This document shows positions 4,593 through 48,599 of a DNA stretch of 64,000 bases, in pieces. The notes beneath the pieces were generated by a model, which did no database searches, was not told where the DNA came from, and worked only from the letters and a program-made list of their open reading frames with translations. Made by a program: the position numbers and the translations under genes. Source of the stretch: Eledone cirrhosa (taxonomy: Eukaryota); NCBI GenBank assembly GCA_964016885.1, contig CAXHJY010001158.1, forward strand, positions 62,001 through 126,000. The letters run 5' to 3'. Each line of letters opens with the position of its first letter. The stretch's first letter is position 1.

Positions 4593-4975
4593 ATTTTCGA
4601 ATCGACATCAACTCGGCTACGGCTATCCCGTCGAGTACGAGAGTATCGCGGGATCAGAGCAACGGTTTGCTAGGCTGCCTCTGAGCGATAACGGCTGAAC
4701 GCCTCCTCTAAGCCGGAACCCTAGCCGGACCCGAGTTGTTTTTCGACAAGCGTCTCGACCTTCTTAAGGCCCATGCCTTAGTTTGGCGATTGCCGTCCGT
4801 TCGCCGACGGCGGCAGCGTCAGCGGAAATGCCATTCTGTGACGACTACGACGATTCGTCGTCGTCGTCGTCCATTCGATTTCCTGAAAGAGATAGAGACT
4901 AAAGTGATCAAATTGTTCGGAGTTACGTGCTTAGTAGAGCAGCTACCACACTGCAATCTATTGAGAGTTTTCTGA
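4593..4975 (+). pseudogene. Degenerate 28S rRNA 3'-terminal fragment
   Basis: Colinear 28S 3' motifs: AGTACGAGAG (sarcin-ricin loop, 4634-4643), GGCTGAACGCCTC..TAAG, GTAGAGCAGCT...GCAATCTATTGAGAG. Confidence 0.85.
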
Positions 4976-5400
4976 CGAACGATACAATCCGCCCACGTGG
5001 CGCCAGAAAGGGAGAAGAAAAGAAAAGTTAGACGCCGCCGATCGATCGGTTCGTTGTTTTACGTGTACACAGCTTGTGTGTGTGTCTGTATGTGATACAA
5101 GCCGCCTATCCGTCTTCCAAGTAAGTTTTGTGTGTAGACTGCGGAAAGAAATCCAATCCGCCGTCTAGGCGGTTCTGCCGCCGACCCATACTTTTGCGAG
5201 TCGCTCCCGGGAAAGACAGGCGGCAAGACGGCGTGTATACACGACGCCTTCCGTCTTCCGCCTCGAACCCGGCAAACGTTCCTTTATTCGTCCACGCCTT
5301 CCCGCTTCGATCGCGAGAAAGTAATCAATCTGTTTTGTGTGTGTGTCTGTGTGTGATACAAATTTGTTTTCTTAATTTGATAACCATGAATTGTTTCAAC
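4976..5400 (+). other. 3'-ETS/IGS-like GC-rich trailer
   Basis: CpG-rich segment directly after the 28S 3' end, with short dyads and a duplicated TGTGTGTGTGTCTGT.TGTGATACAA; assigned by position. Confidence 0.45.
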
Positions 5401-5714
5401 ACCGGCCCTTTTAAGGGCCACTTATATTTTCAATAATCAGTTTAAATGGGTTGCACCGTAGCCACTTGGTAATACACTGCAAATCTCCCGTCAATCTATG
5501 AAGGTTTTGTAGTAGATTAGATCAAAACACAATCAGCAAGACAGTAATGGAATGAATAATATAAACATTTGTTTATAATTAAAGCCTTAAGATGTCCCTC
5601 CCTCCCTCCCTTCCTTCCTTCCTTCCTTCCTTCCTTCCTTCCTTCCTTACGATATACACTTTAATAACATTGAAACTTATTTAATAAGTTTAAATTTTAA
5701 ACACTTTTTATTCA

Positions 5715-5846
5715 GACGTACCGCGATAAGTAACTAGATATGTTCTAACGAATAATCCGCGATGTGGCGAGGATTACCGCGATAGGAAATTAGATACGTT
5801 CCAAAGAAATATCCGCGAAAAGTGAACCGCGATATAGCGGGTTCAC
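5715..5846. mobile_element. Possible Tc1/mariner-pogo MITE end fragment
   Basis: Repeated CCGCGAT motifs ending in the hairpin GTGAACCGCGATATAGCGGGTTCAC; second terminus not found. Confidence 0.3.
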
Positions 5847-5848
5847 CA

Positions 5849-5909
5849 GCCAGTGTATTACTGGTACTTTATTTTATCGACCCCCATAAGGATGAAAGGC
5901 AAAGTTAAC
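5849..5909 (-). mobile_element. tRNA-derived SINE fragment
   Basis: Reverse complement of the SINE core at 17111-17220 (GTTAACTTTGCCTTTCATCCT..GGGGTCGATAAAATAAAG). Confidence 0.75.
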
Positions 5910-6004
5910 TGTGCAATAACAAAGGGAGATAACCTCGTCTTTTTTTTTTTACGGAGTTATTTCCCTTTAAATTTTATCTATTACTTATGATGATACAATT
6001 TAAT

Positions 6005-6135
6005 CAGTTCTTAGCTGTCGAGACACTGCATCCTTTAAAACCTCCATGGAACAAGCTACCTGCAACAGTTGTTAGCTGTCGAGACACTGCATCTTTTAAA
6101 ACCTCCATGGAACAAACTACCTGCATCAGTTGTTA
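6005..6135 (+). repeat. ~61-bp tandem duplication
   Basis: Two copies of TTAGCTGTCGAGACACTGCATC.TTTAAAACCTCCATGGAACAA.CTACCTGCA. Confidence 0.8.
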
Positions 6136-6403: not shown

Positions 6404-6619
6404 CTAAGTTAAGTTGGGGCTAAGTTAAGTTGAGGTTAAGTTGAGTTGGGGTTAAGTTAAGTGGGGGTTAAGTTAAGCTGGGGTTAAGTTAAGTTGAGGT
6501 TAAGTTAAGTTGGGGTTAAGTCAAGTTGGGGTTAAGTTAAGTTGGGGTTAAGTTAGGTTGGGGTTAAGTTAGGTTGGGGTTAAGTTAAGTTGGGGTTAAG
6601 TTAGGTTGCGGTTAAGTTA
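6404..6619 (+). repeat. G-rich ~16-bp minisatellite (TTAAGTTAAGTTGGGG)n
   Basis: Directly visible; copy B at ~43078-43310 has one extra unit. Confidence 0.9.
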
Positions 6620-9600
6620 CATTCGCCGCCGGACTTCAGCTTCCTCATTTAGCATGGGCAGTTTTTCTTGAAAATCACACCACACACAGCAAATGTGTGT
6701 CCGTACATGTACCAGTAATTACAGATCGATTCCGGTGAAAATTCACTGAAAACGGGCCATCCGGCCCTGTGCGTCGATCGTGGGCCGGCCGGATGTTGAC
6801 GGATCGATGTGTAATTAGAAGTACATGTGCGGACACTCATTGGCTGTGCGTGGTATGCATTTCAGCAAGATATCTCCGTAACATCAAGAATTATGGCTGT
6901 GGAGGCACACCTAGTCAAACGTAAACAAGGTCTGGAGCGTTTACGCTTCGCGATTTTGTTTACGTTTGACTAGGTGTGCCTCCACAGCCATAACTCTTGA
7001 TGTTACGGAGATATCTTGCTGAAATGCAGACCGCGCACAGCCAATGAGTGTCCGCACATGTACTTCTAATTACACATCGATCCGTCAACATCCGGCCGGC
7101 CCACGATCGACGCACAGGGCCGGATGGCCCGTTTTCAGTGAATTTTCACCGGAATCGATCTGTAATTACTGGTACATGTGCGGAGACACATTTGCTGTGT
7201 GTGGTGTGATTTTCAAGAAAAACTGCCCATGCTAAATGAGGAAGCTGAAGTCCGCCGGCGAATGGTGTGCTTCGAAGAAAACTAATTCGAAAATGACCGT
7301 TTGCAGGCGGAGTAACCTTTTCGATCGTGGGCCAGCCGCCCGTGGTGGGATCCATCTGTAATTACTGGTACATGTGCGGACATACATTTGCTGTGTGTGG
7401 TGTGATTTTCAAGAAGAACTGCCCATGCTAAATGAGGAAGCTGAAGTCCGCCGGCGAATGGTGTGCTTCGAAGAAAACTAATTCGAAAATGACCGTTTGC
7501 AGGCGGGGTAACCTTTTCGATCGTGGGCCAGCCGCCCGTGGTGGGATCCATCTGTAATTACTGGTACATGTGCGGACACACATTTGCTGTGTGTGGTGTG
7601 ATTTTCGAGAAAGACTGCCCATGCTAAATGAGGAAGCTGAAGTCCGCCGGCGAATGGTGTGCTTCGAAGAAAACTAATTCGAAAATGACTATTTGCCGGC
7701 GGAATCACCTTTTCGGTCCTGGTCCGGCCGGATCTTGCCGGATCGATCGGAAATTTGTGGACCATGTTCGGAAGGCCATTGTGCATGTGTGGTGAAAAAA
7801 ATTTGTGTCGAAATCTTCTCGGAAAATAACGGATCGCCGGCGGAGATTGCCATTTCGATCGTGGGCCGGCCGGATCTTGTCGGATCGATTCGGACATATG
7901 TGCATCGTGTTCGCAAGGCCCTTGTCTATGTGTGGTGTGATTTTCATAAAGAAATTCCGAAAAACCCAGTTTTAAATCTGATTTCGCCAAAGAATTTTGG
8001 CTATCAGATCGGGTTGAAAGGTATGGTTTCAGGTCGATCTGAAAGTCTAAAATGGAATTCACTCGGTTAGCTAACTATTGATATATCGGAGATATCTTTC
8101 TGAAAATCACACCACACACTCCCAATGAGTGTCTGCACATGTACCAGTAATTACAGATGGATCCCACCACGGGCGGCCGGCCCACGATCGAAAAGGTTAC
8201 TCCGAAGCACACCATTCGCCGGCGGAATTCATTTAGCATGGGCAGTTTTTCTCGAAAATCACACCACACACAGCCAATGAGTGTCCGCACATGTACCAGT
8301 AATTACAGATGGATCCCACCACGGGCGGCTGGCCCACGATCGAAAAGGTTACTCCGCCTGCAAACGGTCATTTTCGAATTCGTTTTCTTCGAAGCACACG
8401 ATTCGCCGGCGGACTTCAGCTGCCTCATTTAGCATGGGCAGTTTTTCTCGAAAATCACACCACACACAGCAAATGTGTGTCCGCACATGTACCAGTAATT
8501 ACAGATCGATTCCGGTGAAAATTCACTGAAAACGGGCCATTCGGCCCTGTGCGTCGATCGTGGGCCGGCCGGATGTTGACGGATCGATGTGTAATTAGAA
8601 GTACATGTGCGGACACTCATTGGCTGTGCGTGGTATGCATTTCAGCAAGATATCTCCGTAACATCAAGAGTTATGGCTGTGGAGGCACACCTAGTCAAAC
8701 GTAAACAAGCTCTGGAGCGTATACGCTTCGCGATTTTGTTTACGTTTGACTAGGTGTGCCTCCACAGCCACAACTCTTGATGTTACGGAGATATCTTGCT
8801 GAAATGCATACCACGCACAGCCAATGAGTGTCCGCACATGTACTTCTAATTACACATCGATCCGTCAACATCCGGCCGGCCCACGATCGACGCACAGGGC
8901 CGGATGGCCCGTTTTCAGTGAATTTTCACCGGAATCGATCTGTAATTACTGGTACATGTGCGGACATACATTTGCTGTGTGTGGTGTGATTTTCACGAAA
9001 AACTGCCCATGCTAAATGAGGAAGCTGAAGTCCGCCGGCGAATGGTGTGCTTCGAAGAAAACTAATTCGAAAATGACCGTTTGCAGGCGGGGTAACCTTT
9101 TCGATCGTGGGCCAGCCGCCCGTGGTGGGATCCATCTGTAATTACTGGTACATGTGCGGACACACATTTGCTGTGTGTGGTGTGATTTTCGAGAAAGACT
9201 GCCCATGCTAAATGAGGAAGCTGAAGTCCGCCGGCGAATGGTGTGCTTCGAAGAAAACTAATTCGAAAATGACTATTTGCCGGCGGAATCACCTTTTCGG
9301 TCCTGGTCCGGCCGGATCTTGCCGGATCGATCGGAAATTTGTGGACCATGTTCGGAAGGCCATTGTGCATGTGTGGTGAAAAAAATTTGTGTCGAAATCT
9401 TCTCGGAAAATAACGGATCGCCGGCGGAGATTGCCATTTCGATCGTGGGCCGGCCGGATCTTGTCGGATCGATTCGGACATATGTGCATCGTGTTCGCAA
9501 GGCCCTTGTCTATGTGTGGTGTGATTTTCATAAAGAAATTCCGAAAAACCCAGTTTTAAATCTGATTTCGCCAAAGAATTTTGGGTATCAGATCGGGTTG

Positions 9601-11880
9601 AAAGGTATGGTTTCAGGTCGATCTGAAAGTCTAAAATGGAATTCACTCGGTTAGCTAACTTTTGATATATCGGAGATATCTTTCTGAAAATCACACCACA
9701 CACTCCCAATGAGTGTCTGCACATGTACCAGTAATTACAGATGGATCCCACCACGGGCGGCCGGCCCACGATCGAAAAGGTTACTCCGAAGCACACCATT
9801 CGCCGGCGGAATTCATTTAGCATGGGCAGTTTTTCTCGAAAATCACACCACACACAGCCAATGAGTGTCCGCACATGTACCAGTAATTACAGATGGATCC
9901 CACCACGGGCGGCTGGCCCACGATCGAAAAGGTTACTCCGCCTGCAAACGGTCATTTTCGAATTAGTTTTCTTCGAAGCACACCATTCGCCGGCGGACTT
10001 CAGCTTCCTCATTTAGCATGGGCAGTTTTTCTCGAAAATCACACCACACACAGCAAATGTGTGTCCGCACATGTACCAGTAATTACAGATCGATTCCGGT
10101 GAAAATTCACTGAAAACGGGCCATTCTGCCCTGTGCGTCGATCGTGGGCCGGCCGGATGTTGACGGATCGATGTGTAATTAGAAGTACATGTGCGGACAC
10201 TCATTGGCTGTGCGTGGTATGCATTTCAGCAAGATATCTCCGTAACATCAAGAGTTATGGCTGTGGAGGCACACCTAGTCAAACGTAAACAAGCTCTGGA
10301 GCGTATACGCTTCGCGATTTTGTTTACGTTTGACTAGGTGTGCCTCCACAGCCACAACTCTTGATGTTACGGAGATATCTTGCTGAAATGCATACCACGC
10401 ACAGCCAATGAGTGTCCGCACATGTACTTCTAATTACACATCGATCCGTCAACATCCGGCCGGCCCACGATCGACGCACAGGGCCGGATGGCCCGTTTTC
10501 AGTGAATTTTCACCGGAATCGATCTGTAATTACTGGTACATGTGCGGACACACATTTGCTGTGTGTGGTGTGATTTTCACGAAAAACTGCCCATGCTAAA
10601 TGAGGAAGCTGAAGTCCGCCGGCGAATGGTGTGCTTCGAAGAAAACTAATTCGAAAATGACCGTTTGCAGGCGGAGTAACCTTTTCGATCGTGGGCCAGC
10701 CGCCCGTGGTGGGATACATCTGTAATTACTGGTACATGTGCGGACACACATTTGCTGTGTGTGGTGTGATTTTCGAGAAAGACTGCCCATGCTAAATGAG
10801 GAAGCTGAAGTCCGCCGGCGAATGGTGTGCTTCGAAGAAAACTAATTCGAAAATGACTATTTGCCGGCGGAATCACCTTTTCGGTCCTGGTCCGGCCGGA
10901 TCTTGCCGGATCGATCGGAAATTTGTGGACCATGTTCGGAAGGCCATTGTGCATGTGTGGTGAAAAAAATTTGTGTCGAAATCTTCTCGGAAAATAACGG
11001 ATCGCCGGCGGAGATTGCCATTTCGATCGTGGGCCGGCCGGATCTTGTCGGATCGATTCGGACATATGTGCATCGTGTTCGCAAGGCCCTTGTCTATGTG
11101 TGGTGTGATTTTCATAAAGAAATTCCGAAAAACCCAGTTTTAAATCTGATTTCGCCAAAGAATTTTGGCTATCAGATCGGGTTGAAAGGTATGGTTTCAG
11201 GTCGATCTGAAAGTCTAAAATGGAATTCACTCGGTTAGCTAACTATTGATATATCGGAGATATCTTTCTGAAAATCACACCACACACAGCCAATGAGTGT
11301 CCGCACATGTACCAGTAATTACAGATGGATCCCACCACGGGCGGCTGGCCCACGATCGAAAAGGTTACTCCGCCTGCAAACGGTCATTTTCGAATTAGTT
11401 TTCTTCGAAGCACACCATTCGCCGGCGGACTTCAGCTTCCTCATTTAGCATGGGCAGTTTTTCTTGAAAATCACACCACACACAGCAAATGTGTGTCCGC
11501 ACATGTACCAGTAATTACAGATCGATTCCGGTGAAAATTCACTGAAAACGGGCCATTCGGCCCTGTGCGTCGATCGTGGGCCGGCCGGATGTTGACGGAT
11601 CGATGTGTAATTAGAAGTACATGTGCGGACACTCATTGGCTGTGCGTGGTATGCATTTCACTAAGATATCTCCGTAACATCAAGAGTTATGGCTGTGGAG
11701 GCACACCTAGTCAAACGTAAACAAGGTCTGGAGCGTTTACGCTTCGCGATTTTGTTTACGTTTGACTAGGTGTGCCTCCACAGCGACAACTCTTGATGTT
11801 ACGGAGATATCTTGCTGAAATTCATACCACGCACAGCCAATGAGTGTCCGCACATGTACCTGTAATTACACATCGATCCG
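6620..11880. repeat. Palindromic higher-order satellite, copy A
   Basis: Inverted arms around 27-nt loops at 6929-6955, 8709-8735, 10293-10319 and 11725-11751; periods 1780, 1584 and 1432 bp; 196- and 152-bp subrepeats. Confidence 0.93.
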
Positions 11881-12746: not shown

Positions 12747-12836
12747 CTGTAAAGGGAGGTAACTGCTGGATTAATTTGGTTAATTAAGTTAACAGAAATT
12801 ATGAACCGGTTTCTACAGAGCCTTCTGGACATTTAA

Positions 12837-13057
12837 CCCTTTAGCATTTAAACCAGCCATACCTAGCCAGAATACTCTCACATCTTTCTGTTCAAACCAG
12901 CCATAACTGGCCACTCATACTGACGTTAAGGTATTGTTCTCAATATAAATAATATCAAAATCTCATAGATTCGATATTATATGAGATAATTATGTAAGAT
13001 AAAGCCTTTACCACAAAAATACAATAGTATATATAGAGTAATAAAAATGCTAAAGGG
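12837..13057. mobile_element. piggyBac-like MITE
   Basis: TTAA|CCCTTTAGCATTT ... AAATGCTAAAGGG|TAAA: 13-bp TIRs and a TTAA-like target site. Confidence 0.75.
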
Positions 13058-13349
13058 TAAAAGTAGCTTATTATTTTGTGAGCTCTTGCTACTTATTGCT
13101 CTTGTGCATCAAGAACATACACAGCTTACATTTTGTTGCTAATCTCACTGAGATCCAACTACATCTCTTGTTTATCCATAGTTTGGAATTTCTACCTACT
13201 CCTTTCCTTTAGAATGATCAAGGCCATTTTCTTGTGGGGATCTAGGCCCTGTTTTCCTTTCTATTTTGCCAAGTTATCTTACATCACTTTCATTCTAGAC
13301 CATGCTTCCAGGTTTGGAATTTCTCCTCTAATTTTACCACAGATTAAGT

Positions 13350-15075: not shown

Positions 15076-15097
15076 ATATACATATATATATATATAT

Positions 15098-22210: not shown

Positions 22211-22266
22211 TTTGTACCCTGCTCGCAGTCTATGATGGTGTGTAGAGGGTGGCAGGTTGTTCTGGT

Positions 22267-32858: not shown

Positions 32859-32952
32859 ACCCTAACCCTAAACCTAACCCCAACTCCAACTCTGACCCTA
32901 AACCTAACCCCAACCCTAACCCCAACCCTAACCCTAACCCTAACCCTAACCC
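32859..32952 (+). repeat. Interstitial telomeric repeat (CCCTAA)n with variants
   Basis: Degenerate, then perfect, CCCTAA hexamers fused directly to the first 172-bp subrepeat. Confidence 0.85.
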
Positions 32953-34053
32953 ACGATAGAAGACGTTCGTTACCGCTGGAGCAACGCAAATTACTCCTCG
33001 GTTGACGCCAAAAACGAACGCCTTCTCGACGGCTAGCCGCATTTCGTGATCCGCCTTTCGATTGCGCTTCCGTCGCGGAAAAAGAATTGCCTTTATAGGC
33101 CGCCGCCGCCGCCCGACCGGACCCACGATAGAAGACGTTCGTTACCGCTGGAGCAACGCAAATTACTCCTCGGTTGACGCCAAAAACGAACGCCTTCTCG
33201 ACGGCTAGCCGCATTTCGTGATCCGCCTTTCGATTGCGCTTCCGTCGCGGAAAAAGAATTGCCTTTATAGGCCGCCGCCGCCCGACCGGACCCACGATAG
33301 AAGACGTTCGTTACCGCTGGAGCAACGCAAATTACTCCTCGGTTGACGCCAAAAACGAACGCCTTCTCGACGGCTAGCCGCATTTCGTGATCCGCCTTTC
33401 GATTGCGCTTCCGTCGCGGAAAAAGAATTGCCTTTATAGGCCGCCGCCGCCGCCCGACCGGACCCACGATAGAAGACGTTCGTTACCGCTGGAGCAACGC
33501 AAATTACTCCTCGGTTGACGCCAAAAACGAACGCCTTCTCGACGGCTAGCCGCATTTCGTGATCCGCCTTTCGATTGCGCTTCCGTCGCGGAAAAAGAAT
33601 TGCCTTTATAGGCCGCCGCCGCCGCCCGACCGGACCCACGATAGAAGACGTTCGTTACCGCTGGAGCAACGCAAATTACTCCTCGGTTGACGCCAAAAAC
33701 GAACGCCTTCTCGACGGCTAGCCGCATTTCGTGATCCGCCTTTCGATTGCGCTTCCGTCGCGGAAAAAGAATTGCCTTTATAGGCCGCCGCCGCCGCCCG
33801 ACCGGACCCACGATAGAAGACGTTCGTTACCGCTGGAGCAACGCAAATTACTCCTCGGTTGACGCCAAAAACGAACGCCTTCTCGACGGCTAGCCGCATT
33901 TCGTGATCCGCCTTTCGATTGCGCTTCCGTCGCGGAAAAAGAATTGCCTTTATAGGCCGCCGCCGCCGCCCGACCGGACCCACGATAGAAGACGTTCGTT
34001 ACCGCTGGAGCAACGCAAATTACTCCTCGGTTGACGCCAAAAACGAACGCCTT
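32950..34053 (+). promoter_or_regulatory. 172-bp IGS-like subrepeat array (6 full units plus 1 partial); candidate Pol I spacer promoters/enhancers
   Basis: Units start at about 32950, 33122, 33291, 33463, 33635, 33807 and 33979. Each full unit has TTTATAGGCCG; the array ends ~360 bp before the 18S start. The repeat is seen directly; the promoter role is inferred. Confidence 0.55.
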
Positions 34054-34411
34054 CCGGTTCGGGCGACGTAAAAGTCTGTAGCCTTTTCGCCGATCCTCGA
34101 CGATTATCCGCCTTCCGAACAACCGCCTTTCCGCCGTCACAGCAGTAGGTACTCGTCCGTCGTAATAGCCGTCATTTTAATGCAGGAGAAACGCCTAAAT
34201 GCACTGCGATTAACGACGATCTACGACGCGCTTACTCTTCCTTGCTGCGACGAAGGTTTCGTTCGGCTTTTCGTCGTGGACCCGGTCAGGTCATGCCGCT
34301 GATCTCGCGTTGCGTCGTTACCGCTGGAGCAACGCAAATTACTCCTCGTTTAACGCCAACATCGAACGCGCTTCGGTTCTCGGTCGTCGTTGTTTTGTTT
34401 CGTGCGGAAGA
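34054..34411 (+). other. 5'-ETS-like leader
   Basis: CpG-rich segment between the subrepeats and the 18S 5' end; carries another copy of the subrepeat core at ~34316-34350. Confidence 0.55.
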
Positions 34412-34597
34412 TACCTGGGTGATCCTGCCAGTAGTCATATGCTTGTCTCAAAGCTTAAGCCATGCAAGTGGAAGTTCATGCCGTAAACGAAAATGGTGAA
34501 ACCGCGAATGGCTCAGGAACCGGATCTAATCCTCGGGACCGTATTCCTCACCGCGAGGAGAGGATAACTGTGGCAATTCTAGAGCTAATACATGCAA
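34412..34597 (+). pseudogene. 18S rRNA 5' fragment (about nt 1-185)
   Basis: TACCTGGGTGATCCTGCCAGTAGTCATATGCTTGTCTCAAAG.TTAAGCCATGCA ... GTGAAACCGCGAATGGCTCA ... GGATAACTGTGGCAATTCTAGAGCTAATACATGC matches the canonical eukaryotic SSU start. Confidence 0.93.
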
Positions 34598-37500
34598 TTG
34601 AGATCGGAGAGGGAGCGATCCGTCTGCTTGATTCCGATAACGAACGAGACATTCGTATCCGAAAGAACGTTTGTCTGGAAACTGGTGCAGTCAGTGAGTC
34701 GAAAAAAAAATATCTCGGTGGTAGTAGCAAATATTCGAACGAGACATTCGTATGCGAAAGAACGTTTGTCGGTGGTAGTAGCAAATATTCGAACGAGACA
34801 TTCGTATGCGAAAGAACGTTTGTCTGGAAGTGGCGATCCATGCCCGGTGGATAGTTGGTTCCGGGTTTTACTATGATTGTTGCAAAACAAAAACTTAAAG
34901 GGATTGACAGAATTTGCGATTCCGGAGAGAGGGCGATCCGTCTGCTTGATTCCGATAACGAACGAGACATTCGTATCCGAAAGAACGTTTGTCTGGAAAC
35001 TGGTGAGTCAGTGAGTCGAAAAAAAAATATCTCGGTGGTAGTAGCAAATATTCGAACGAGACATTCGTATGCGAAAGAACGTTTGTCGGTGGTAGTAGCA
35101 AATATTCGAACGAGACATTCGTATGCGAAAGAACGTTTGTCTGGAAGTGGCGATCCATGCCCGGTGGATAGTTGGTTCCGGGTTTTACTATGATTGTTGC
35201 AAAACAGAAACTTAAAGGGATTGACAGAATTTGCGATTACGGAGAGGGGGCGATCCGTCTGCTTGATTCCGATAACGAACGAGACATTCGTATCCGAAAG
35301 AACGTTTGTCTGGAAACTGGTGAGTCAGTGAGTCGAAAAAAAAATATCTCGGTGGTAGTGGCAAATATTCGAACGAGACATTCGTATGCGAAAGAACGTT
35401 TGTCGGTGGTAGTAGCAAATATTCGAACGAGACATTCGTATGCGAAAGAACGTTTGTCTGGAAGTGGCGATCCATGCCCGGTGGATAGTTGGTTCCGGGT
35501 TTTACTATGATTGTTGCAAAACAGAAACTTAAAGGGATTGACAGAATTTGCGATTCCGGAGAGGGGGCGATCCGTCTGCTTGATTCCGATAACGAACGAG
35601 ACATTCGTATCCGAAAGAACGTTTGTCTGGAAACTGGTGAGTCAGTGAGTCGAAAAAAAAAATATCTCGGTGGTAGTAGCAAATATTCGAACGAGACATT
35701 CGTATGCGAAAGAACGTTTGTCGGTGGTAGTAGCAAATATTCGAACGAGACATTCGTATGCGAAAGAACGTTTGTCGGTGGTAGTAGCAAATATTCGAAC
35801 GAGACATTCGTATGCGAAAGAACGTTTGTCGGTGGTAGTAGCAAATATTCGAACGAGACATTCGTATGCGAAAGAACGTTTGTCTGGAAGTGGCGATCCA
35901 TGCTCGGTGGATAGTTGGTTCCGGGTTTTACTATGATTGTTGCAAAACAGAAACTTAAAGGGATTGACAGAATTTGCGATTCCGGAGAGGGGGCGATCCG
36001 TCTGCTTGATTCCGATAACGAACGAGACATTCGTATCCGAAAGAACGTTTGTCTGGAAACTGGTGAGTCAGTGAGTCGAAAAAAAAATATCTCGGTGGTA
36101 GTAGCAAATATTCGAACGAGACATTCGTATGCGAAAGAACGTTTGTCGGTGGTAGTAGCAAATATTCGAACGAGACATTCGTATGCGAAAGAACGTTTGT
36201 CTGGAAGTGGCGATCCATGCCCGGTGGATAGTTGGTTCCGGGTTTTACTATGATTGTTGCAAAACAAAAACTTAAAGGGATTGACAGAATTTGCGATTCC
36301 GGAGAGAGGGCGATCCGTCTGCTTGATTCCGATAACGAACGAGACATTCGTATCCGAAAGAACGTTTGTCTGGAAACTGGTGAGTCAGTGAGTCGAAAAA
36401 AAAAATATCTCGGTGGTAGTAGCAAATATTCGAACGAGACATTCGTATGCGAAAGAACGTTTGTCGGTGGTAGTAGCAAATATTCGAACGAGACATTCGT
36501 ATGCGAAAGAACGTTTGTCTGGAAGTGGCGATCCATGCTCGGTGGATAGTTGGTTCCGGGTTTTACTATGATTGTTGCAATACAGAAACTTAAAGGGATT
36601 GACAGAATTTGCGATTCCGGAGAGGGGGCGATCCGTCTGCTTGATTCCGATAACGAACGAGACATTCGTATCCGAAAGAACGTTTGTCTGGAAACTGGTG
36701 AGTCAGTGAGTCGAAAAAAAAATATCTCGGTGGTAGTAGCAAATATTCGAACGAGACATTCGTATGCGAAAGAACGTTTGTCGGTGGTAGTAGCAAATAT
36801 TCGAACGAGACATTCGTATGCGAAAGAACGTTTGTCTGGAAGTGGCGATCCATGCCCGGTGGATGGTTGGTTCCGGGTTTTACTATGATTGTTGCAAAAC
36901 AGAAACTTAAAGGGATTGACAGAATTTGCGATTCCGGAGAGGGGGCGATCCGTCTGCTTGATTCCGATAACGAACGAGACATTCGTATCCGAAAGAACGT
37001 TTGTCTGGAAACTGGTGAGTCGAAAAAAAAATATCTCGGTGGTAGTAGCAAATATTCGTATGCGAAAGAAAAGATCTCGGTGGTAGTAGCAAATATTCGA
37101 ACGAGACATTCGTAGGCGAAAGAAAAATATCTCGGTGGTAGTAGCAAATATTCGAACGAGACATTCGTATGCGAAAGAACGTTTGTCGGTGGTAGTAGCA
37201 AATATTCGAACGAGACATTCGTATGCGAAAGAACGTTTGTCGGTGGTAGTAGCAAATATTCGAACGAGACATTCGTATGCGAAAGAACGTTTGTCTGGAA
37301 GTGGCGATCCATGCCCGGTGGATAGTTGGTTCCGGGTTTTACTATGATTGTTGCAAAACAGAAACTTAAAGGGATTGACAGAATTTGCGATTCCGGAGAG
37401 AGGGCGATCCGTCTGCTTGATTCCGATAACGAACGAGACATTCGTATCCGAAAGAACGTTTGTCTGGAAACTGGTGCAGTCAGTGAGTCGAAAAAAAAAT

Positions 37501-40500
37501 ATCTCGGTGGTAGTAGCAAATATTCGAACGAGACATTCGTATGCGAAAGAACGTTTGTCGGTGGTAGTAGCAAATATTCGAACGAGACATTCGTATGCGA
37601 AAGAACGTTTGTCTGGAAGTGGCGATCCATGCTCGGTGGATAGTTGGTTCCGGGTTTTACTATGATTGTTGCAAAACAGAAACTTAAAGGGATTGACAGA
37701 ATTTGCGATTCCGGAGAGGGGGCGATCCGTCTGCTTGATTCCGATAACGAACGAGACATTCGTATCCGAAAGAACGTTTGTCTGGAAACTGGTGAGTCAG
37801 TGAGTCGAAAAAAAAATATCTCGGTGGTAGTAGCAAATATTCGAACGAGACATTCGTATGCGAAAGAACGTTTGTCGGTGGTAGTAGCAAATATTCGAAC
37901 GAGACATTCGTATGCGAAAGAACGTTTGTCTGGAAGTGGCGATCCATGCCCGGTGGATAGTTGGTTCCGGGTTTTACTATGATTGTTGCAAAACAGAAAC
38001 TTAAAGGGATTGACAGAATTTGCGATTCCGGAGAGGGGGCGATCCGTCTGCTTGATTCCGATAACGAACGAGACATTCGTATCCGAAAGAACGTTTGTCT
38101 GGAAACTGGTGAGTCAGTGAGTCGAAAAAAAAATATCTCGGTGGTAGTAGCAAATATTCGAACGAGACATTCGTATGCGAAAGAACGTTTGTCGGTGGTA
38201 GTAGCAAATATTCGAACGAGACATTCGTATGCGAAAGAACGTTTGTCTGGAAGTGGCGATCCATGCCCGGTGGATAGTTGGTTCCGGGTTTTACTATGAT
38301 TGTTGCAAAACAAAAACTTAAAGGGATTGACAGAATTTGCGATTCCGGAGAGAGGGCGATCCGTCTGCTTGATTCCGATAACGAACGAGACATTCGTATC
38401 CGAAAGAACGTTTGTCTGGAAACTGGTGAGTCAGTGAGTCGAAAAAAAAAATATCTCGGTGGTAGTAGCAAATATTCGAACGAGACATTCGTATGCGAAA
38501 GAACGTTTGTCGGTGGTAGTAGCAAATATTCGAACGAGACATTCGTATGCGAAAGAACGTTTGTCTGGAAGTGGCGATCCATGCTCGGTGGATAGTTGGT
38601 TCCGGGTTTTACTATGATTGTTGCAAAACAGAAACTTAAAGGGATTGACAGAATTTGCGATTCCGGAGAGGGGGCGATCCGTCTGCTTGATTCCGATAAC
38701 GAACGAGACATTCGTATCCGAAAGAACGTTTGTCTGGAAACTGGTGAGTCAGTGAGTCGAAAAAAAAATATCTCGGTGGTAGTAGCAAATATTCGAACGA
38801 GACATTCGTATGCGAAAGAACGTTTGTCGGTGGTAGTAGCAAATATTCGAACGAGACATTCGTATGCGAAAGAACGTTTGTCTGGAAGTGGCGATCCATG
38901 CCCGGTGGATAGTTGGTTCCGGGTTTTACTATGATTGTTGCAAAACAAAAACTTAAAGGGATTGACAGAATTTGCGATTCCGGAGAGAGGGCGATCCGTC
39001 TGCTTGATTCCGATAACGAACGAGACATTCGTATCCGAAAGAACGTTTGTCTGGAAACTGGTGAGTCAGTGAGTCGAAAAAAAAAATATCTCGGTGGTAG
39101 TAGCAAATATTCGAACGAGACATTCGTATGCGAAAGAACGTTTGTCGGTGGTAGTAGCAAATATTCGAACGAGACATTCGTATGCGAAAGAACGTTTGTC
39201 TGGAAGTGGCGATCCATGCTCGGTGGATAGTTGGTTCCGGGTTTTACTATGATTGTTGCAAAACAGAAACTTAAAGGGATTGACAGAATTTGCGATTCCG
39301 GAGAGGGGGCGATCCGTCTGCTTGATTCCGATAACGAACGAGACATTCGTATCCGAAAGAACGTTTGTCTGGAAACTGGTGAGTCAGTGAGTCGAAAAAA
39401 AAATATCTCGGTGGTAGTAGCAAATATTCGAACGAGACATTCGTATGCGAAAGAACGTTTGTCGGTGGTAGTAGCAAATATTCGAACGAGACATTCGTAT
39501 GCGAAAGAACGTTTGTCTGGAAGTGGCGATCCATGCCCGGTGGATAGTTGGTTCCGGGTTTTACTATGATTGTTGCAAAACAGAAACTTAAAGGGATTGA
39601 CAGAATTTGCGATTCCGGAGAGGGGGCGATCCGTCTGCTTGATTCCGATAACGAACGAGACATTCGTATCCGAAAGAACGTTTGTCTGGAAACTGGTGAG
39701 TCGAAAAAAAAATATCTCGGTGGTAGTAGCAAATATTCGTATGCGAAAGAAAAGATCTCGGTGGTAGTAGCAAATATTCGAACGAGACATTCGTAGGCGA
39801 AAGAAAAATATCTCGGTGGTAGTAGCAAATATTCGAACGAGACATTCGTATGCGAAAGAACGTTTGTCGGTGGTAGTAGCAAATATTCGAACGAGACATT
39901 CGTATGCGAAAGAACGTTTGTCTGGAAGTGGCGATCCATGCCCGGTGGATAGTTGGTTCCGGGTTTTACTATGATTGTTGCAAAACAGAAACTTAAAGGG
40001 ATTGACAGAATTTGCGATTCCGGAGAGGGGGCGATCCGTCTGCTTGATTCCGATAACGAACGAGACATTCGTATCCGAAAGAACGTTTGTCTGGAAACTG
40101 GTGAGTCAGTGAGTCGAAAAAAAAATATCTCGGTGGTAGTAGCAAATATTCGAACGAGACATTCGTATTCGAAAGAACGTTTGTCTGGAAGTTGCGATCC
40201 ATGCCCGGTGGATAGTTGGTTCCGGGCTTTACTATGATTGTTGCAAAACAGAAACTTAAAGGGATTGACAGAATTTGCGATTCCGGAGAGGGGGCGATCC
40301 GTCTGCTTGATTTCGATAACGAACGAGACATTCGTATCCGAAAGAACGTTTGTCTGGAAACTGGTGAGTCAGTGAGTCGAAAAAAAAAATATCTCGGTGG
40401 TAGTAGCAAATATTCGAACGAGACATTCGTATGCGAAAGAACGTTTGTCGGTGGTAGTAGCAAATATTCGAACGAGACATTCGTATGCGAAAGAACGTTT

Positions 40501-41266
40501 GTCGGTGGTAGTAGCAAATATTCGAACGAGACATTCGTATGCGAAAGAACGTTTGTCTGGAAGTGGCGATCCATGCCCGGTGGATAGTTGGTTCCGGGTT
40601 TTACTATGATTGTTGCAAAACAGAAACTTAAAGGGATTGACAGAATTTGCGATTCCAGAGAGAGGGCGATCCGTCTGCTTGATTCCGATAACGAACGAGA
40701 CATTCGTATCCGAAAGAACGTTTGTCTGGAAACTGGTGAGTCAGTGAGTCGAAAAAAAAATATCTCGGTGGTAGTAGCAAATATTCGAACGAGACATTCG
40801 TATGCGAAAGAACGTTTGTCTGGAAGTGGCGATCCATGCTCGGTGGATAGTTGGTTCCGGGTTTTACTATGATTGTTGCAAAACAGAAACTTAAAGGGAT
40901 TGACAGAATTTGCGATTCCGGAGAGAGGGCGATCCGTCTGCTTGATTCCGATAACGAACGAGACATTCGTATCCGAAAGAACGTTTGTCTGGAAACTGGT
41001 GAGTCAGTGAGTCGAAAAAAAAATATCTCGGTGGTAGTAGCAAATATTCGTATGCGAAAGAAAAGATCTCGGTGGTAGTAGCAAATATTCGAACGAGACA
41101 TTCGTATGCGAAAGAAAAATATCTCGGTGGTAGTAGCAAATATTCGAACGAGACATTCGTATTCGAAAGAACGTTTGTCTGGAAGTTGCGATCCATGCCC
41201 GGTGGATAGTTGGTTCCGGGCTTTACTATGATTGTTGCAAAACAGAAACTTAAAGGAATTGACAGA
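34598..41266 (+). repeat. rRNA-derived chimeric satellite, copy B (complete, ~20 monomers)
   Basis: Monomers of 263-459 bp; about 47 copies of the 28S motif GGTGGTAGTAGCAAATATTC by manual count; bounded by the 18S 5' and 28S 3' fragments. Confidence 0.93.
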
Positions 41267-41649
41267 ATTTTCGAATCGACATCAACTCGGCTACGGCTAT
41301 CCCGTCGAGTACGAGAGTATCGCGGGATCAGAGCAACGGTTTGCTAGGCTGCCTCTGAGCGATAACGGCTGAACGCCTCCTCTAAGCCGGAACCCTAGCC
41401 GGACCCGAGTTGTTTTTCGACAAGCGTCTCGACCTTCTTAAGGCCCATGCCTTAGTTTGGCGATTGCCGTCCGTTCGCCGACGGCGGCAGCGTCAGCGGA
41501 AATGCCATTCTGTGACGACTACGACGATTCGTCGTCGTCGTCGTCCATTCGATTTCCTGAAAGAGATAGAGACTAAAGTGATCAAATTGTTCGGAGTTAC
41601 GTGCTTAGTAGAGCAGCTACCACACTGCAATCTATTGAGAGTTTTCTGA
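41267..41649 (+). pseudogene. Degenerate 28S rRNA 3'-terminal fragment, copy B
   Basis: Same sequence as 4593-4975 at offset 36674. Confidence 0.85.
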
Positions 41650-43310: not shown

Positions 43311-46300
43311 CATTCGCCGCCGGACTTCAGCTTCCTCATTTAGCATGGGCAGTTTTTCTTGAAAATCACACCACACACAGCAAATGTGTGTCCGCACATG
43401 TACCAGTAATTACAGATCGATTCCGGTGAAAATTCACTGAAAACGGGCCATCCGGCCCTGTGCGTCGATCGTGGGCCGGCCGGATGTTGACGGATCGATG
43501 TGTAATTAGAAGTACATGTGCGGACACTCATTGGCTGTGCGTGGTATGCATTTCAGCAAGATATCTCCGTAACATCAAGAGTTATGGCTGTGGAGGCACA
43601 CCTAGTCAAACGTAAACAAGGTCTGGAGCGTTTACGCTTCGCGATTTTGTTTACGTTTGACTAGGTGTGCCTCCACAGCCACAACTCTTGATGTTACGGA
43701 GATATCTTGCTGAAATGCATACCGCGCACAGCCAATGAGTGTCCGCACATGTACTTCTAATTACACATCGATCCGTCAACATCCGGCCGGCCCACGATCG
43801 ACGCACAGGGCCGGATGGCCCGTTTTCAGTGAATTTTCACCGGAATCGATCTGTAATTACTGGTACATGTGCGGAGACACATTTGCTGTGTGTGGTGTGA
43901 TTTTCAAGAAAAACTGCCCATGCTAAATGAGGAAGCTGAAGTCCGCCGGCGAATGGTGTGCTTCGAAGAAAACTAATTCGAAAATGACCGTTTGCAGGCG
44001 GAGTAACCTTTTCGATCGTGGGCCAGCCGCCCGTGGTGGGATCCATCTGTAATTACTGGTACATGTGCGGACATACATTTGCTGTGTGTGGTGTGATTTT
44101 CAAGAAGAACTGCCCATGCTAAATGAGGAAGCTGAAGTCCGCCGGCGAATGGTGTGCTTCGAAGAAAACTAATTCGAAAATGACCGTTTGCAGGCGGGGT
44201 AACCTTTTCGATCGTGGGCCAGCCGCCCGTGGTGGGATCCATCTGTAATTACTGGTACATGTGCGGACACACATTTGCTGTGTGTGGTGTGATTTTCGAG
44301 AAAGACTGCCCATGCTAAATGAGGAAGCTGAAGTCCGCCGGCGAATGGTGTGCTTCGAAGAAAACTAATTCGAAAATGACTATTTGCCGGCGGAATCACC
44401 TTTTCGGTCCTGGTCCGGCCGGATCTTGCCGGATCGATCGGAAATTTGTGGACCATGTTCGGAAGGCCATTGTGCATGTGTGGTGAAAAAAATTTGTGTC
44501 GAAATCTTCTCGGAAAATAACGGATCGCCGGCGGAGATTGCCATTTCGATCGTGGGCCGGCCGGATCTTGTCGGATCGATTCGGACATATGTGCATCGTG
44601 TTCGCAAGGCCCTTGTCTATGTGTGGTGTGATTTTCATAAAGAAATTCCGAAAAACCCAGTTTTAAATCTGATTTCGCCAAAGAATTTTGGCTATCAGAT
44701 CGGGTTGAAAGGTATGGTTTCAGGTCGATCTGAAAGTCTAAAATGGAATTCACTCGGTTAGCTAACTATTGATATTTCGGAGATATCTTTCTGAAAATCA
44801 CACCACACACTCCCAATGAGTGTCTGCACATGTACCAGTAATTACAGATGGATCCCACCACGGGCGGCCGGCCCACGATCGAAAAGGTTACTCCGAAGCA
44901 CACCATTCGCCGGCGGAATTCATTTAGCATGGGCAGTTTTTCTCGAAAATCACACCACACACAGCCAATGAGTGTCCGCACATGTACCAGTAATTACAGA
45001 TGGATCCCACCACGGGCGGCTGGCCCACGATCGAAAAGGTTACTCCGCCTGCAAACGGTCATTTTCGAATTCGTTTTCTTCGAAGCACACGATTCGCCGG
45101 CGGACTTCAGCTGCCTCATTTAGCATGGGCAGTTTTTCTCGAAAATCACACCACACACAGCAAATGTGTGTCCGCACATGTACCAGTAATTACAGATCGA
45201 TTCCGGTGAAAATTCACTGAAAACGGGCCATTCGGCCCTGTGCGTCGATCGTGGGCCGGCCGGATGTTGACGGATCGATGTGTAATTAGAAGTACATGTG
45301 CGGACACTCATTGGCTGTGCGTGGTATGCATTTCACCAAGATATCTCCGTAACATCAAGAGTTATGGCTGTGGAGGCACACCTAGTCAAACGTAAACAAG
45401 CTCTGGAGCGTATACGCTTCGCGATTTTGTTTACGTTTGACTAGGTGTGCCTCCACAGCCACAACTCTTGATGTTACGGAGATATCTTGCTGAAATGCAT
45501 ACCACGCACAGCCAATGAGTGTCCGCACATGTACTTCTAATTACACATCGATCCGTCAACATCCGGCCGGCCCACGATCGACGCACAGGGCCGGATGGCC
45601 CGTTTGCAGTGAATTTTCACCGGAATCGATCTGTAATTACTGGTACATGTGCGGACACACATTTGCTGTGTGTGGTGTGATTTTCACGAAAAACTGCCCA
45701 TGCTAAATGAGGAAGCTGAAGTCCGCCGGCGAATGGTGTGCTTCGAAGAAAACTAATTCGAAAATGACCGTTTGCAGGCGGAGTAACCTTTTCGATCGTG
45801 GGCCAGCCGCCCGTGGTGGGATACATCTGTAATTACTGGTACATGTGCGGACACACATTTGCTGTGTGTGGTGTGATTTTCGAGAAAGACTGCCCATGCT
45901 AAATGAGGAAGCTGAAGTCCGCCGGCGAATGGTGTGCTTCGAAGAAAACTAATTCGAAAATGACTATTTGCCGGCGGAATCACCTTTTCGGTCCTGGTCC
46001 GGCCGGATCTTGCCGGATCGATCGGAAATTTGTGGACCATGTTCGGAAGGCCATTGTGCATGTGTGGTGAAAAAAATTTGTGTCGAAATCTTCTCGGAAA
46101 ATAACGGATCGCCGGCGGAGATTGCCATTTCGATCGTGGGCCGGCCGGATCTTGTCGGATCGATTCGGACATATGTGCATCGTGTTCGCAAGGCCCTTGT
46201 CTATGTGTGGTGTGATTTTCATAAAGAAATTCCGAAAAACCCAGTTTTAAATCTGATTTCGCCAAAGAATTTTGGCTATCAGATCGGGTTGAAAGGTATG

Positions 46301-47920
46301 GTTTCAGGTCGATCTGAAAGTCTAAAATGGGATTCACTCGGTTAGCTAACTTTTGATATATCGGAGATATCTTTCTGAAAATCACACCACACACTCCCAA
46401 TGAGTGTCTGCACATGTACCAGTAATTACAGATGGATCCCACCACGGGCGGCCGGCCCACGATCGAAAAGGTTACTCCGAAGCACACCATTCGCCGGCGG
46501 AATTCATTTAGCATGGGCAGTTTTTCTCGAAAATCACACCACACACAGCCAATGAGTGTCCGCACATGTACCAGTAATTACAGATGGATCCCACCACGGG
46601 CGGCTGGCCCACGATCGAAAAGGTTACTCCGCCTGCAAACGGTCATTTTCGAATTCGTTTTCTTCGAAGCACACGATTCGCCGGCGGACTTCAGCTGCCT
46701 CATTTAGCATGGGCAGTTTTTCTCGAAACTCACACCACACACAGCAAATGTGTGTCCGCACATGTACCAGTAATTACAGATCGATTCCGGTGAAAATTCA
46801 CTGAAAACGGGCCATTCGGCCCTGTGCGTCGATCGTGGGCCGGCCGGATGTTGACGGATCGATGTGTAATTAGAAGTACATGTGCGGACACTCATTGGCT
46901 GTGCGTGGTATGCATTTCAGCAAGATATCTCCGTAACATCAAGAGTTATGGCTGTGGAGGCACACCTAGTCAAACGTAAACAAGCTCTGGAGCGTATACG
47001 CTTCGCGATTTTGTTTACGTTTGACTAGGTGTGCCTCCACAGCCACAACTCTTGATGTTACGGAGATATCTTGCTGAAATGCATACCACGCACAGCCAAT
47101 GAGTGTCCGCACATGTACTTCTAATTACACATCGATCCGTCAACATCCGGCCGGCCCACGATCGACGCACAGGGCCGGATGGCCCGTTTGCAGTGAATTT
47201 TCACCGGAATCGATCTGTAATTACTGGTACATGTGCGGACACACATTTGCTGTGTGTGGTGTGATTTTCACGAAAAACTGCCCATGCTAAATGAGGAAGC
47301 TGAAGTCCGCCGGCGAATGGTGTGCTTCGAAGAAAACTAATTCGAAAATGACCGTTTGCAGGCGGAGTAACCTTTTCGATCGTGGGCCAGCCGCCCGTGG
47401 TGGGATACATCTGTAATTACTGGTACATGTGCGGACACACATTTGCTGTGTGTGGTGTGATTTTCGAGAAAGACTGCCCATGCTAAATGAGGAAGCTGAA
47501 GTCCGCCGGCGAATGGTGTGCTTCGAAGAAAACTAATTCGAAAATGACTATTTGCCGGCGGAATCACCTTTTCGGTCCTGGTCCGGCCGGATCTTGCCGG
47601 ATCGATCGGAAATTTGTGGACCATGTTCGGAAGACCATTGTGCATGTGTGGTGAAAAAAATTTGTGTCGAAATCTTCTCGGAAAATAACGGATCGCCGGC
47701 GGAGATTGCCATTTCGATCGTGGGCCGGCCGGATCTTGTCGGATCGATTCGGACATATGTGCATCGTGTTCGCAAGGCCCTTGTCTATGTGTGGTGTGAT
47801 TTTCATAAAGAAATTCCGAAAAACCCAGTTTTAAATCTGATTTCGCCAAAGAATTTTGGCTATCAGATCGGGTTGAAAGGTATGGTTTCAGGTCGATCTG
47901 AAAGTCTAAAATGGAATTCA
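43311..47920. repeat. Palindromic higher-order satellite, copy B (truncated on the right)
   Basis: Loops at 43620-43646, 45400-45426 and 46984-47010; ends abruptly at ATGGAATTCAC. Confidence 0.92.
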
Positions 47921-48599
47921 CACATTTTTAGTTATACTTTGAAGCACATTTTTTTTGTTACTATTATATTAAAAGTTATCTGGTTACGTTATTTGACTGG
48001 TATTTCTAGCATTTTACAAGGACCACGTGTGTGTTTTATTTAAGGAAGATCTAGTTGTTATTTCTGATATTTTCTTCATCAAGTTAGTTGCTATTTCCTG
48101 CATCCTCTTGAAGACAAGAAATAATAATGAATTAGCTGCTGTTTCTAGTAGGTTCTATGGTAGTGATGAGCGTGGGAGGGAGGTTTGACTGCTATTTTTA
48201 GCAGGTTCTAAGGCATTGAGGTTTATGTTTTACGAGAGATTTGGCTGTTATTTCTAACATGTTATAATGGAGAGAGAGAGAGAGTATAAGATATACAGAG
48301 AGAGGGAGTATAAGATATAGAGAGAGGGGAAACGGCCGATGTTTACGTTGAGAAAACCTAATAAAATGTTATAAATGGGTTTATAAAGAATAGAATGAGA
48401 TAAACAAGACAAAGTTAGATAAAATAAATCAGCTGTAAGGATATTATACGATATATTTATAATATTTTAATATATTTTTCCTGGTCGTCTGCTGCCATTG
48501 ATAGAGAGAGGAGTGGTGGGAGGTAGCCATAACAACCGTGGTAGCAGCACTGAGGTTTGTTTTTAAAGAAGTGAATACAAGAAAAACAAGCAACTAAGA

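What the first reader, a model, noticed from the sequence alone, without database searches (positions are those of the whole stretch)
6620..11880. Satellite built from large near-perfect palindromes (cruciform or hairpin-RNA array)
Arms of at least 300 bp (e.g. 6621-6928 vs 6956-7263) flank a constant 27-nt loop that itself contains AGCGT(TT/AT)ACGCT. There are four centres in copy A and three in copy B. Periods differ by exact subrepeat units (1780-196=1584; 1584-152=1432), and the spacer is a diverged version of the same monomer. Long palindromes are normally unstable, so their retention ~1.6 kb downstream of the 28S end is notable. Possible roles: read-through dsRNA/endo-siRNA source, A-to-I editing substrate, fork barrier or amplification driver, non-B-DNA centromere element, or foldback element.
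Basis: partly seen in the sequence, partly recalled or inferred. Interest (0 to 1): 0.72.

Follow-up and report, generated by a model that had tools for sequence, protein, structure and literature searches.

The report
Fold-back variant of a major satellite
The mirror-image repeats are real: they are a rearranged form of one of this animal's big satellite DNAs, likely made when copying doubled back at a small hairpin that the ordinary satellite still carries and then multiplied as a passenger, and nothing here shows they have a job.

Summary
The palindromes are real. Seven 27-nt loops lie in the window, with arms of 309-480 nt at 97-99% (the fourth has only 129 nt). The assembly holds 357 exact loops, on C28, C18 and unplaced contigs. 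The 1.4-2.0 kb unit is a higher-order repeat of a 196/227-bp satellite that elsewhere runs head-to-tail in arrays of up to 1.4 Mb (C1, C2, C4). The loop aligns to a junction variant of that satellite with an imperfect 18-bp inverted repeat, so fold-back copying is the likely origin. The unit's other inversion junction recurs at the telomere-repeat-bordered edge of the C2 array. The neighbouring "28S" belongs to a scrambled rDNA pseudo-unit in a 33-40 kb macro-repeat; 4 of 4 rDNA spacers read elsewhere lack the array. Left arms track left arms and right track right (2.0 and 3.4 differences per 222 nt, against 4.5 between partner arms). Mismatches show no clear wobble bias and 2 of 170 loops are flipped, so I see no sign of selection for pairing. 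Closest known: Tribolium satellites with inverted subunits. A centromere or fusion-scar role stays open.

The parts
6620..11880 (.). Palindromic higher-order satellite array, macro-unit A (4 loops)
43311..47921 (.). Same array in macro-unit B (loops at 43620, 45400, 46984), ending inside the spacer
6620..6928 (+). Left arm of first palindrome, cut by the 16-mer array
6929..6955 (+). 27-nt loop 1
6956..7264 (+). Right arm of first palindrome
8229..9215 (.). Second palindrome: 480-nt arms, loop 8709-8735. The loop aligns to the parent's 17-nt spacer plus an 11-nt insertion
9813..10799 (.). Third palindrome: 480-nt arms, loop 10293-10319
11596..11880 (.). Fourth, truncated palindrome (129-nt ungapped arms, loop 11725-11751)
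8732..8890 (-). Arm tip: inverted piece of the 227-bp monomer type, 82% to parent
8891..8933 (+). 43-nt linker where the arm returns to the forward monomer; its end aligns loosely with the parent sequence after the seed hairpin (not significant alone)
8934..9376 (+). Forward 196-bp monomers; the window's 196-mer is 87-93% identical to 196-type monomers of C1, C2, C4
9394..9518 (+). Diverged monomer piece, 98.4% and 96.8% to two copies at the telomere-repeat-bordered edge of the C2 array
9549..9656 (.). Segment at the outer inversion junction with no match in the pieces held; missing at the C2 edge
9657..10094 (-). Reverse 196-bp monomers leading into the next left arm
6405..6619 (+). 16-bp satellite abutting the left end; a much longer block of it lies at C28:124.64-124.69 Mb
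4607..4989 (+). Degenerate 28S 3' end of the rDNA pseudo-unit (76% to intact 28S)
32949..41277 (+). Start of the next pseudo-unit: 172-bp repeats from the region upstream of 18S, 193 nt of 18S, then a tandem mosaic of 18S and 28S scraps

Best explanation
The array is a higher-order repeat of the genome's 196/227-bp satellite that likely arose by fold-back (template-switch) copying at a small inverted repeat near an array end and was then amplified as a direct repeat, likely without a function of its own. Shown: every part except a ~110-nt segment and a 43-nt linker is a monomer piece, and orientation switches four times per unit. Shown: the loop sits on a parent junction carrying an imperfect 18-bp inverted repeat. 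Shown: the outer inversion junction also exists at the C2 array edge beside telomeric repeats. Inferred: a local template switch copied about 155 nt backwards and returned to the forward template; a later break and fold-back at that hairpin mirrored the right side into the left arm. Inferred: the unit was caught with rDNA scraps, a 16-mer satellite and LINE debris in a 33-40 kb block and expanded by unequal exchange on C28 (about 1.8 Mb) and, as a nearly pure array of about 105 kb, on C18. Inferred: the 27-nt spacer and slowly accumulating mismatches make it stable enough to persist as ordinary satellite heterochromatin.
For: A monomer motif has 20,466 hits against 357 exact loops. Head-to-tail arrays lie at C1:279.70-280.11, C2:243.64-245.06, C2:169.46-169.47 and C4:211.70-212.26 Mb, with further hits at C4:247.5 Mb; 0 of 31 ten-kb parent pieces had the scored motif on both strands and 0 of 4 had an inverted repeat of 30 nt or more. 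The seed junction occurs 78 times in 15 of 39 parent pieces; arm tip, loop and the first 8 nt of the right arm align to it collinearly apart from an 11-nt insertion. In 57 of those 78, 14 of 18 positions pair; 2 of 8,800 shuffled sites reach 12 of 15. The spacer motif occurs on C1-C27 only at C18 and twice at the C2 edge. In 143 palindromes, partner arms differ by 4.48 per 222 nt, non-partner left-right pairs by 4.54, left-left by 2.02, right-right by 3.42. Of 88 distinct mismatch types 48 cannot wobble, 24 would be G-U on the plus strand and 16 on the minus. Arms differ by 4.35% on C18 and 1.81% elsewhere. Fold-back priming at short inverted repeats is an established route to large palindromes (PMC7999016, passages).
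Against: The direction is not proven: the parent's seed junction could be the collapsed remnant of an older palindrome. The linker's match to the parent continuation is not significant alone (300 of 2,000 shuffles reach it), and loop similarity is modest and not strand-specific (50 of 2,000 forward, 1 of 2,000 reverse). Ordinary 227-mers also hold a few sites with 12-13 of 15 pairs (4 of 454 positions). Partner arms are slightly closer than chance (permutation P = 0.009, effect 1.4%), majority differences are erased in some copies (8 of 137 at position 36, 26 of 137 at 168), and the inner 155 nt differ less (1.5%) than the outer part (3.4%), so some arm-to-arm exchange or protection near the loop exists. 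About 450 copies (inferred) persist, and no symmetric deletion of a centre appeared in the 7 long units inspected. Lack of function is argued from sequence only.
Confidence: 0.68

Rival explanations
1. The palindromic unit is the working centromeric or pericentromeric DNA of C18 and C28, and its hairpins or cruciforms help place CENP-A, as proposed for Tribolium dyad satellites.
For: It derives from an abundant satellite of roughly nucleosomal length whose big arrays lie at 56-63% of C1, C2 and C4 among other satellites and gaps. C18 has about 105 kb of nearly pure unit, 99% matches in sampled pieces. The C28 block is flanked by assembly gaps and simple satellites. Dyad HORs occupy putative (peri)centromeres in Tribolium (PMC13081366, passages and Discussion part 1).
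Against: Rare-variant samples put the family only on C1, C2, C4, C28 and unplaced contigs (11, 2, 25 and 33 hits fully listed; 123 of 127 placed in the fifth sample), plus C18; C2 and C4 have two loci each. On C28 the unit is only about a fifth of a macro-repeat full of LINE debris. Arms drift apart most on C18. Small or unassembled arrays would be missed by this sampling.
Confidence: 0.12
2. The palindrome is an active fragile site that drives amplification of the macro-repeat and took part in chromosome breakage and fusion.
For: Several distinct junctions end inside the array: three right ends, joins to the 172-bp repeats and to flank 15660, an inversion, a flipped terminal copy next to unrelated sequence. 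At C2 the shared inversion junction is cut 125 nt in and abuts TTAGGG repeats whose G-strand points into the satellite, seen in pieces spread over 340 kb. C1, C2 and C4 are 379-443 Mb against 103 Mb for C6.
Against: In the contiguous 400 kb read without choosing for arrays I count by eye 3 junction types in the array against 5 outside, of 8, about P = 0.18 by my own binomial estimate. One right end looks like a deletion derivative of another. Only 2 of 170 loops are flipped. The C2 junction is one event. A 12-to-20 bp spacer increase cuts Alu inverted-repeat recombination about 40-fold in yeast (PMC10164571).
Confidence: 0.1
3. Read-through from the pseudo-rDNA promoter makes long hairpin RNA that is diced or edited and silences the satellite family or rDNA.
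For: Each macro-unit starts with tandem copies of sequence from upstream of 18S, about 94-95% to intact units, on the strand leading into the array. A transcript would fold into a stem of about 480 bp.
Against: Both strands fold equally (-975 and -971 kcal/mol). More than half of the mismatch types cannot wobble, the strand split is 24 to 16, and only 2 positions change on both arms together. Whether the 172-bp repeat holds a start site was not tested.
Confidence: 0.06
4. It is a foldback-type non-autonomous transposon with modular terminal inverted repeats that piled up in tandem.
For: Read from loop to loop, the unit has 480-nt inverted ends made of subrepeats around a middle piece, the outline of FB-like elements (recalled).
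Against: No dispersed copies: exact loop hits on C1-C27 are confined to C18 and spacer hits to C18 and the C2 edge. Array ends differ between copies and cut through arms. Three open frames in the array hit no Pfam family. The parts trace to a head-to-tail satellite.
Confidence: 0.04

Closest known systems
Tribolium madens TmSat2 (704-bp HOR, ~300-bp inverted segments) and T. brevicornis 1061-bp satellite (~470-bp inverted segments), as described in PMC13081366 (passages and Discussion part 1 read)
   Same: A tandem higher-order unit containing long inverted subunits; in T. madens it is built from the same basic element as the major satellite; inversion sites are conserved across copies; function unshown.
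   Different: No common sequence was tested or is claimed. Here the unit is 1.4-2.0 kb with four orientation switches, is a minor variant (about 450 copies) found on two chromosomes plus unplaced contigs, rides in an rDNA-derived macro-repeat, and its likely seed hairpin survives in the parent arrays. The parent pieces sampled show none of the Tribolium macro-dyads.
Palindromes formed by fold-back priming at short inverted repeats (Butler/Yao, Tanaka, Rattray; reviewed in PMC7999016, passages read)
   Same: A large palindrome centred on a short pre-existing inverted repeat with an unpaired spacer, near signs of breakage and telomere repeats.
   Different: Those are somatic or engineered single events. 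This one lies in a reference assembly and is amplified as a direct repeat. The seeds cited there are 42-229 bp; this one is an imperfect 18 bp, later 155 bp.
Cichlid centromeres with inverted 'centroids' (PMC13652916, abstract and outline only)
   Same: Satellite blocks in alternating orientation.
   Different: There the inversions span about 200 kb around 15-kb elements on most chromosomes; here they are sub-kilobase and inside each repeat unit.
Foldback transposons (FB, TU, Tetris; recalled, not read)
   Same: Long inverted ends made of tandem subrepeats.
   Different: No dispersed copies, defined termini or transposase found.

Membership tests
Satellite HOR with intra-monomer dyad (Tribolium type) | Head-to-tail tandem of a higher-order unit | tested here: met
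   Periods 1388-1976; 168 of 170 loops in the same orientation as their neighbours
Satellite HOR with intra-monomer dyad (Tribolium type) | Long inverted subunits inside each unit | tested here: met
   309-480 nt arms at 97-99%
Satellite HOR with intra-monomer dyad (Tribolium type) | Built from the basic monomer of a major satellite | tested here: met
   196- and 227-bp parent monomers at 82-93%
Centromeric satellite | One large array on most or all chromosomes | tested here: inconclusive
   Family seen on 5 of the chromosome-size contigs (numbered to at least C28), two loci each on C2 and C4, and on unplaced contigs; sampling misses small arrays
Centromeric satellite | CENP-A occupancy | not testable with these tools
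   No chromatin data
rDNA intergenic spacer element (fork barrier, spacer repeat) | Present in the spacer of intact rDNA units | tested here: not met
   0 hits for arm, loop, monomer, spacer or 16-mer at 4 of 4 loci (C12, C25, C4, C6); C12 unit complete by Rfam
Hairpin RNA / endo-siRNA locus | Pairing kept by compensatory or one-strand G-U changes | tested here: not met
   48 non-wobble, 24 plus-strand and 16 minus-strand wobble types; 2 positions changed on both arms
Hairpin RNA / endo-siRNA locus | Transcribed and processed or edited | not testable with these tools
   No RNA run was available to lay
Foldback transposon | Dispersed copies with fixed termini and target-site duplications | tested here: not met
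   Hits confined to arrays on C1-C27; variable ends; later contigs only partly listed
Foldback transposon | Transposase or internal coding region | tested here: not met
   0 of 3 array frames hit Pfam
Fold-back palindrome | Centre coincides with a short inverted repeat in a non-palindromic parent | tested here: met
   78 seed junctions, 14 of 18 pairs in 57 of them; direction of change not established

The most novel reading that the evidence does not exclude
The fold-back unit is a breakage-prone derivative of this octopod-like animal's (peri)centromeric satellite that records a breakage-fusion episode: its outer junction was joined to a telomere inside giant chromosome C2, and its amplified form became the centromere-associated DNA of C18 and C28. 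That would tie a hairpin-forming satellite to both chromosome fusion and centromere identity in a group for which my searches found no described centromeric DNA.
Probability: 0.15. Interest if true: 0.78.

Novelty: new variant of a known kind. Interest (0 to 1): 0.42.

Why it matters
Satellite units with long inverted subunits are described as uncommon and are known mainly from Tribolium and one wasp (PMC13081366). Here the parent arrays, the probable seed hairpin, a sister junction at a telomere tract and some 450 amplified copies sit in one genome, so the birth of such a unit can be traced. It also gives a natural control for the non-B-DNA centromere idea: the same satellite exists with and without palindromes on different chromosomes, so one CENP-A or S1/END-seq experiment can ask whether the structure matters. 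My searches found no paper on this satellite or on octopus satellites of this kind; the library lacks most subscription journals, and I opened no supplements.

Tried and rejected
Working-rDNA spacer element: rejected. Conservation across species: the run search listed 20 holders from 17 studies, under 17 coded organisms and one wastewater metagenome. I laid 8 of them. X1 held the macro-unit flank at depth about 5,700. The other seven held far less (listed long pieces at depth 2-120), many pieces near-identical, including the LINE-debris flank in X3, X4 and X10. I read this as trace cross-contamination, not conservation, so these runs are not independent animals. No RNA holder listed. Rfam found no family in the array. 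Earlier-findings look-ups returned nothing. Breakpoint enrichment at the array: inconclusive. A homopolymer-variant sampler gave only 2 hits. A chromosome-by-chromosome survey was not possible because listings stop at 100 rows; the rare-variant samples are a partial substitute. One Rfam call failed internally and was rerun on 3 of its 15 sources. Rows dropped before the arm statistics: 27 of 170 centres and 33 of 170 (flipped, truncated, gapped or at a piece edge).
Full report
Observation. The window (G000:C1185:62001-126000) holds two copies of a macro-repeat about 36.7 kb apart. Each carries an array of palindromes. Loops start at 6929, 8709, 10293, 11725 and at 43620, 45400, 46984; ungapped arms are 309, 480, 480, 129, 309, 480 and 480 nt with 4-13 mismatches. 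The exact loop pattern occurs 357 times in the 3.0-Gb assembly, 348 forward and 9 reverse, and 0 times for the reversed control. That pattern excludes a variant seen in 36 of 170 sampled loops, so about 450 copies is my estimate. In run X1, which may be the source sample, one loop variant has depth 12,902 against 5,560-6,075 for flank contigs. That variant is 89 of 170 loops, which implies about four loops per macro-unit, as assembled.

Surroundings. The macro-unit is a scrambled rDNA pseudo-unit: 172-bp repeats from upstream of 18S, 193 nt of 18S, a tandem mosaic of 18S and 28S scraps, a 28S end at 76% identity, 3' spacer, another 28S scrap, a 16-mer satellite, the palindromes, then about 21 kb of LINE and SINE debris. 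It repeats every 33-40 kb at 98-99% over C28:124.69-126.47 Mb and on unplaced contigs; C18:6.73-6.85 Mb has a rearranged copy with about 105 kb of nearly pure array. Four other rDNA loci (C12, C25, C4, C6) gave no hit to arm, loop, monomer, spacer or 16-mer; the C12 unit has complete 18S, 5.8S and 28S. The SINEs look octopod (recalled, no call), and the 2,876-nt 18S fits a cephalopod (recalled).

Parent satellite. A monomer motif has 20,466 hits, far more than the palindromes explain. A loose end led to head-to-tail arrays of 196- and 227-bp monomers: C1:279.70-280.11 Mb, C2:243.64-245.06 Mb, C2:169.46-169.47 Mb, C4:211.70-212.26 Mb (bounds from sampled pieces), hits at C4:247.5 Mb, and unplaced contigs. 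None of 31 ten-kb pieces had the scored motif on both strands and none of 4 had an inverted repeat of 30 nt or more. The window's 196-mer is 87-93% identical to 196-type parent monomers and the arm tip is 82% identical to the 227-mer. One unit reads: loop, reverse 227 piece (155 nt), 43-nt linker, forward 196-mers, diverged forward pieces, about 110 nt without a match, reverse 196-mers, linker, forward 227 piece.

Origin of the inner centre. Parent arrays contain a junction variant, 78 copies in 15 of 39 pieces, where the 227 piece is followed by a 17-nt spacer and an imperfect inverted copy of the preceding bases. In 57 of the 78, 14 of 18 positions pair; 2 of 8,800 shuffled sites reach 12 of 15, though ordinary 227-mers have 4 such positions in 454. 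The left arm tip, the loop and the first 8 nt of the right arm align collinearly to this junction, with an 11-nt insertion that completes the small hairpin in the loop; after the linker the right arm resumes the parent's downstream sequence. The linker match alone is not significant (300 of 2,000 shuffles), and the loop matches the spacer modestly in both orientations (50 and 1 of 2,000). I infer a template switch that copied about 155 nt backwards and returned, then a break and fold-back that mirrored the right side, the mechanism reviewed in PMC7999016 (passages). The reverse history, with the junction as a collapsed remnant, is not excluded.

Outer junction. The diverged spacer piece 9394-9518 is 98.4% and 96.8% identical to two copies at C2:243.63-243.64 Mb, where it joins TTAGGG repeats on one side and, after a T run replacing roughly 150-170 nt of the unit's spacer, the first reverse monomer of the 1.4-Mb array. 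On C1-C27 the spacer motif occurs only there and on C18. The unit and the C2 edge therefore share a recent ancestor at an array end. The telomere strand points into the satellite (0 CCCTAA against 872-1,036 TTAGGG in each of five pieces), as expected if a chromosome end was joined to broken satellite; that reading is inference from one site.

How the arms evolve. In 143 of 170 centres with ungapped 222-nt arms, partner arms differ by 4.48, left-right pairs from different palindromes by 4.54, left-left by 2.02 and right-right by 3.42. Homogenisation is thus mainly between units in direct register. The small excess likeness of partners is significant (P = 0.009); two loops are flipped, one with an apparent exchange point inside the arms; and majority differences are erased in a minority of copies. 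Arm-to-arm exchange therefore occurs but seems rare. Of 88 mismatch types 48 cannot wobble, 24 would be G-U on the plus strand and 16 on the minus. Arms differ more on C18 (4.35%, 35 centres) than elsewhere (1.81%, 102 centres), and less near the loop (1.5%) than further out (3.4%). This fits tolerated drift more than selection for pairing. In yeast, widening an Alu inverted-repeat spacer from 12 to 20 bp lowers recombination about 40-fold and mismatches lower it further (PMC10164571, passages), which may explain persistence.

Function. No chromatin or RNA data could be tested. For a centromere role: monomer length, mid-chromosome megabase arrays of the parent, and a homogeneous C18 array. Against: rare-variant samples placed the family only on C1, C2, C4, C28 and unplaced contigs (4 of 127 hits unplaced by me), with two loci on C2 and on C4. 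For fragility: many junctions end in the array, but in 400 kb read contiguously I count 3 of 8 junction types there, which is not significant. Foldback transposon and rDNA-spacer roles failed their tests.

Comparison and verdict. It is built like Tribolium madens TmSat2 and the T. brevicornis satellite, tandem units with 300-470 bp inverted segments that the authors call uncommon (PMC13081366, passages and Discussion part 1), and meets the three structural features I could test. It is a new variant: larger, four inversions per unit, a minor derivative with parent and seed still present, carried in an rDNA-derived macro-repeat. Searches found no description of it (listings only). Real, well explained in origin, function unshown. 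Interest 0.42.

Noticed in passing
window 1-4603 and 34605-41277: Tandem satellite (54-372 bp units) stitched from short 18S and 28S scraps that share a few bases at the joins; rDNA turned into a satellite, present in the macro-units sampled.
   Followed up: partly
G000:C2:243.30-243.64 Mb (L092, L081, L161-L163, L115): Interstitial TTAGGG tract seen in five pieces over 340 kb, all one strand, joined to the 1.4-Mb satellite array; a 1.5-kb satellite island with the same junction lies 9 kb inside the tract. Possible fusion scar.
   Followed up: partly
G000 C1, C2, C4 and unplaced C469, C625, C1280, C1458, C1745, C1785: Head-to-tail 196/227-bp satellite family of several Mb, a candidate (peri)centromeric repeat worth its own study.
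   Followed up: partly
G000:C28:124.64-124.69 Mb (L079, L048): Long block of the 16-bp satellite with its own repeated orientation switches, ending at an assembly gap just before the macro-repeat array.
   Followed up: no
window 5399-5443 and 42074-42118: Histone 3' stem-loop match (36.6 bits, cut-off 34) inside the pseudo-rDNA unit; no histone frame was looked for nearby.
   Followed up: no
window 19445-22318, minus strand: Open 957-aa endonuclease plus reverse transcriptase frame of a LINE between (TA)n tracts; absent from macro-unit B and some C28 units.
   Followed up: partly
G000:C28 (136.5 Mb): Out of size order after C25 (29 Mb), as sex chromosomes are often listed last (recalled); untested.
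   Followed up: no
L015:3074-5949: Intact 18S is 2,876 nt and 28S about 6.3 kb, both strongly expanded; 5.8S copies occur on many chromosomes.
   Followed up: no
public runs X3-X20: This animal's repeats appear at low depth in runs filed under many other organisms and a wastewater metagenome, likely cross-contamination; a trap for horizontal-transfer claims.
   Followed up: yes
L117:6296-8740 (G000:C18:6.606 Mb): A 2.5-kb stretch 91% identical to window 12771-15307 lies about 120 kb from the C18 array; possible source of the macro-unit flank, or another copy of a mobile element.
   Followed up: no
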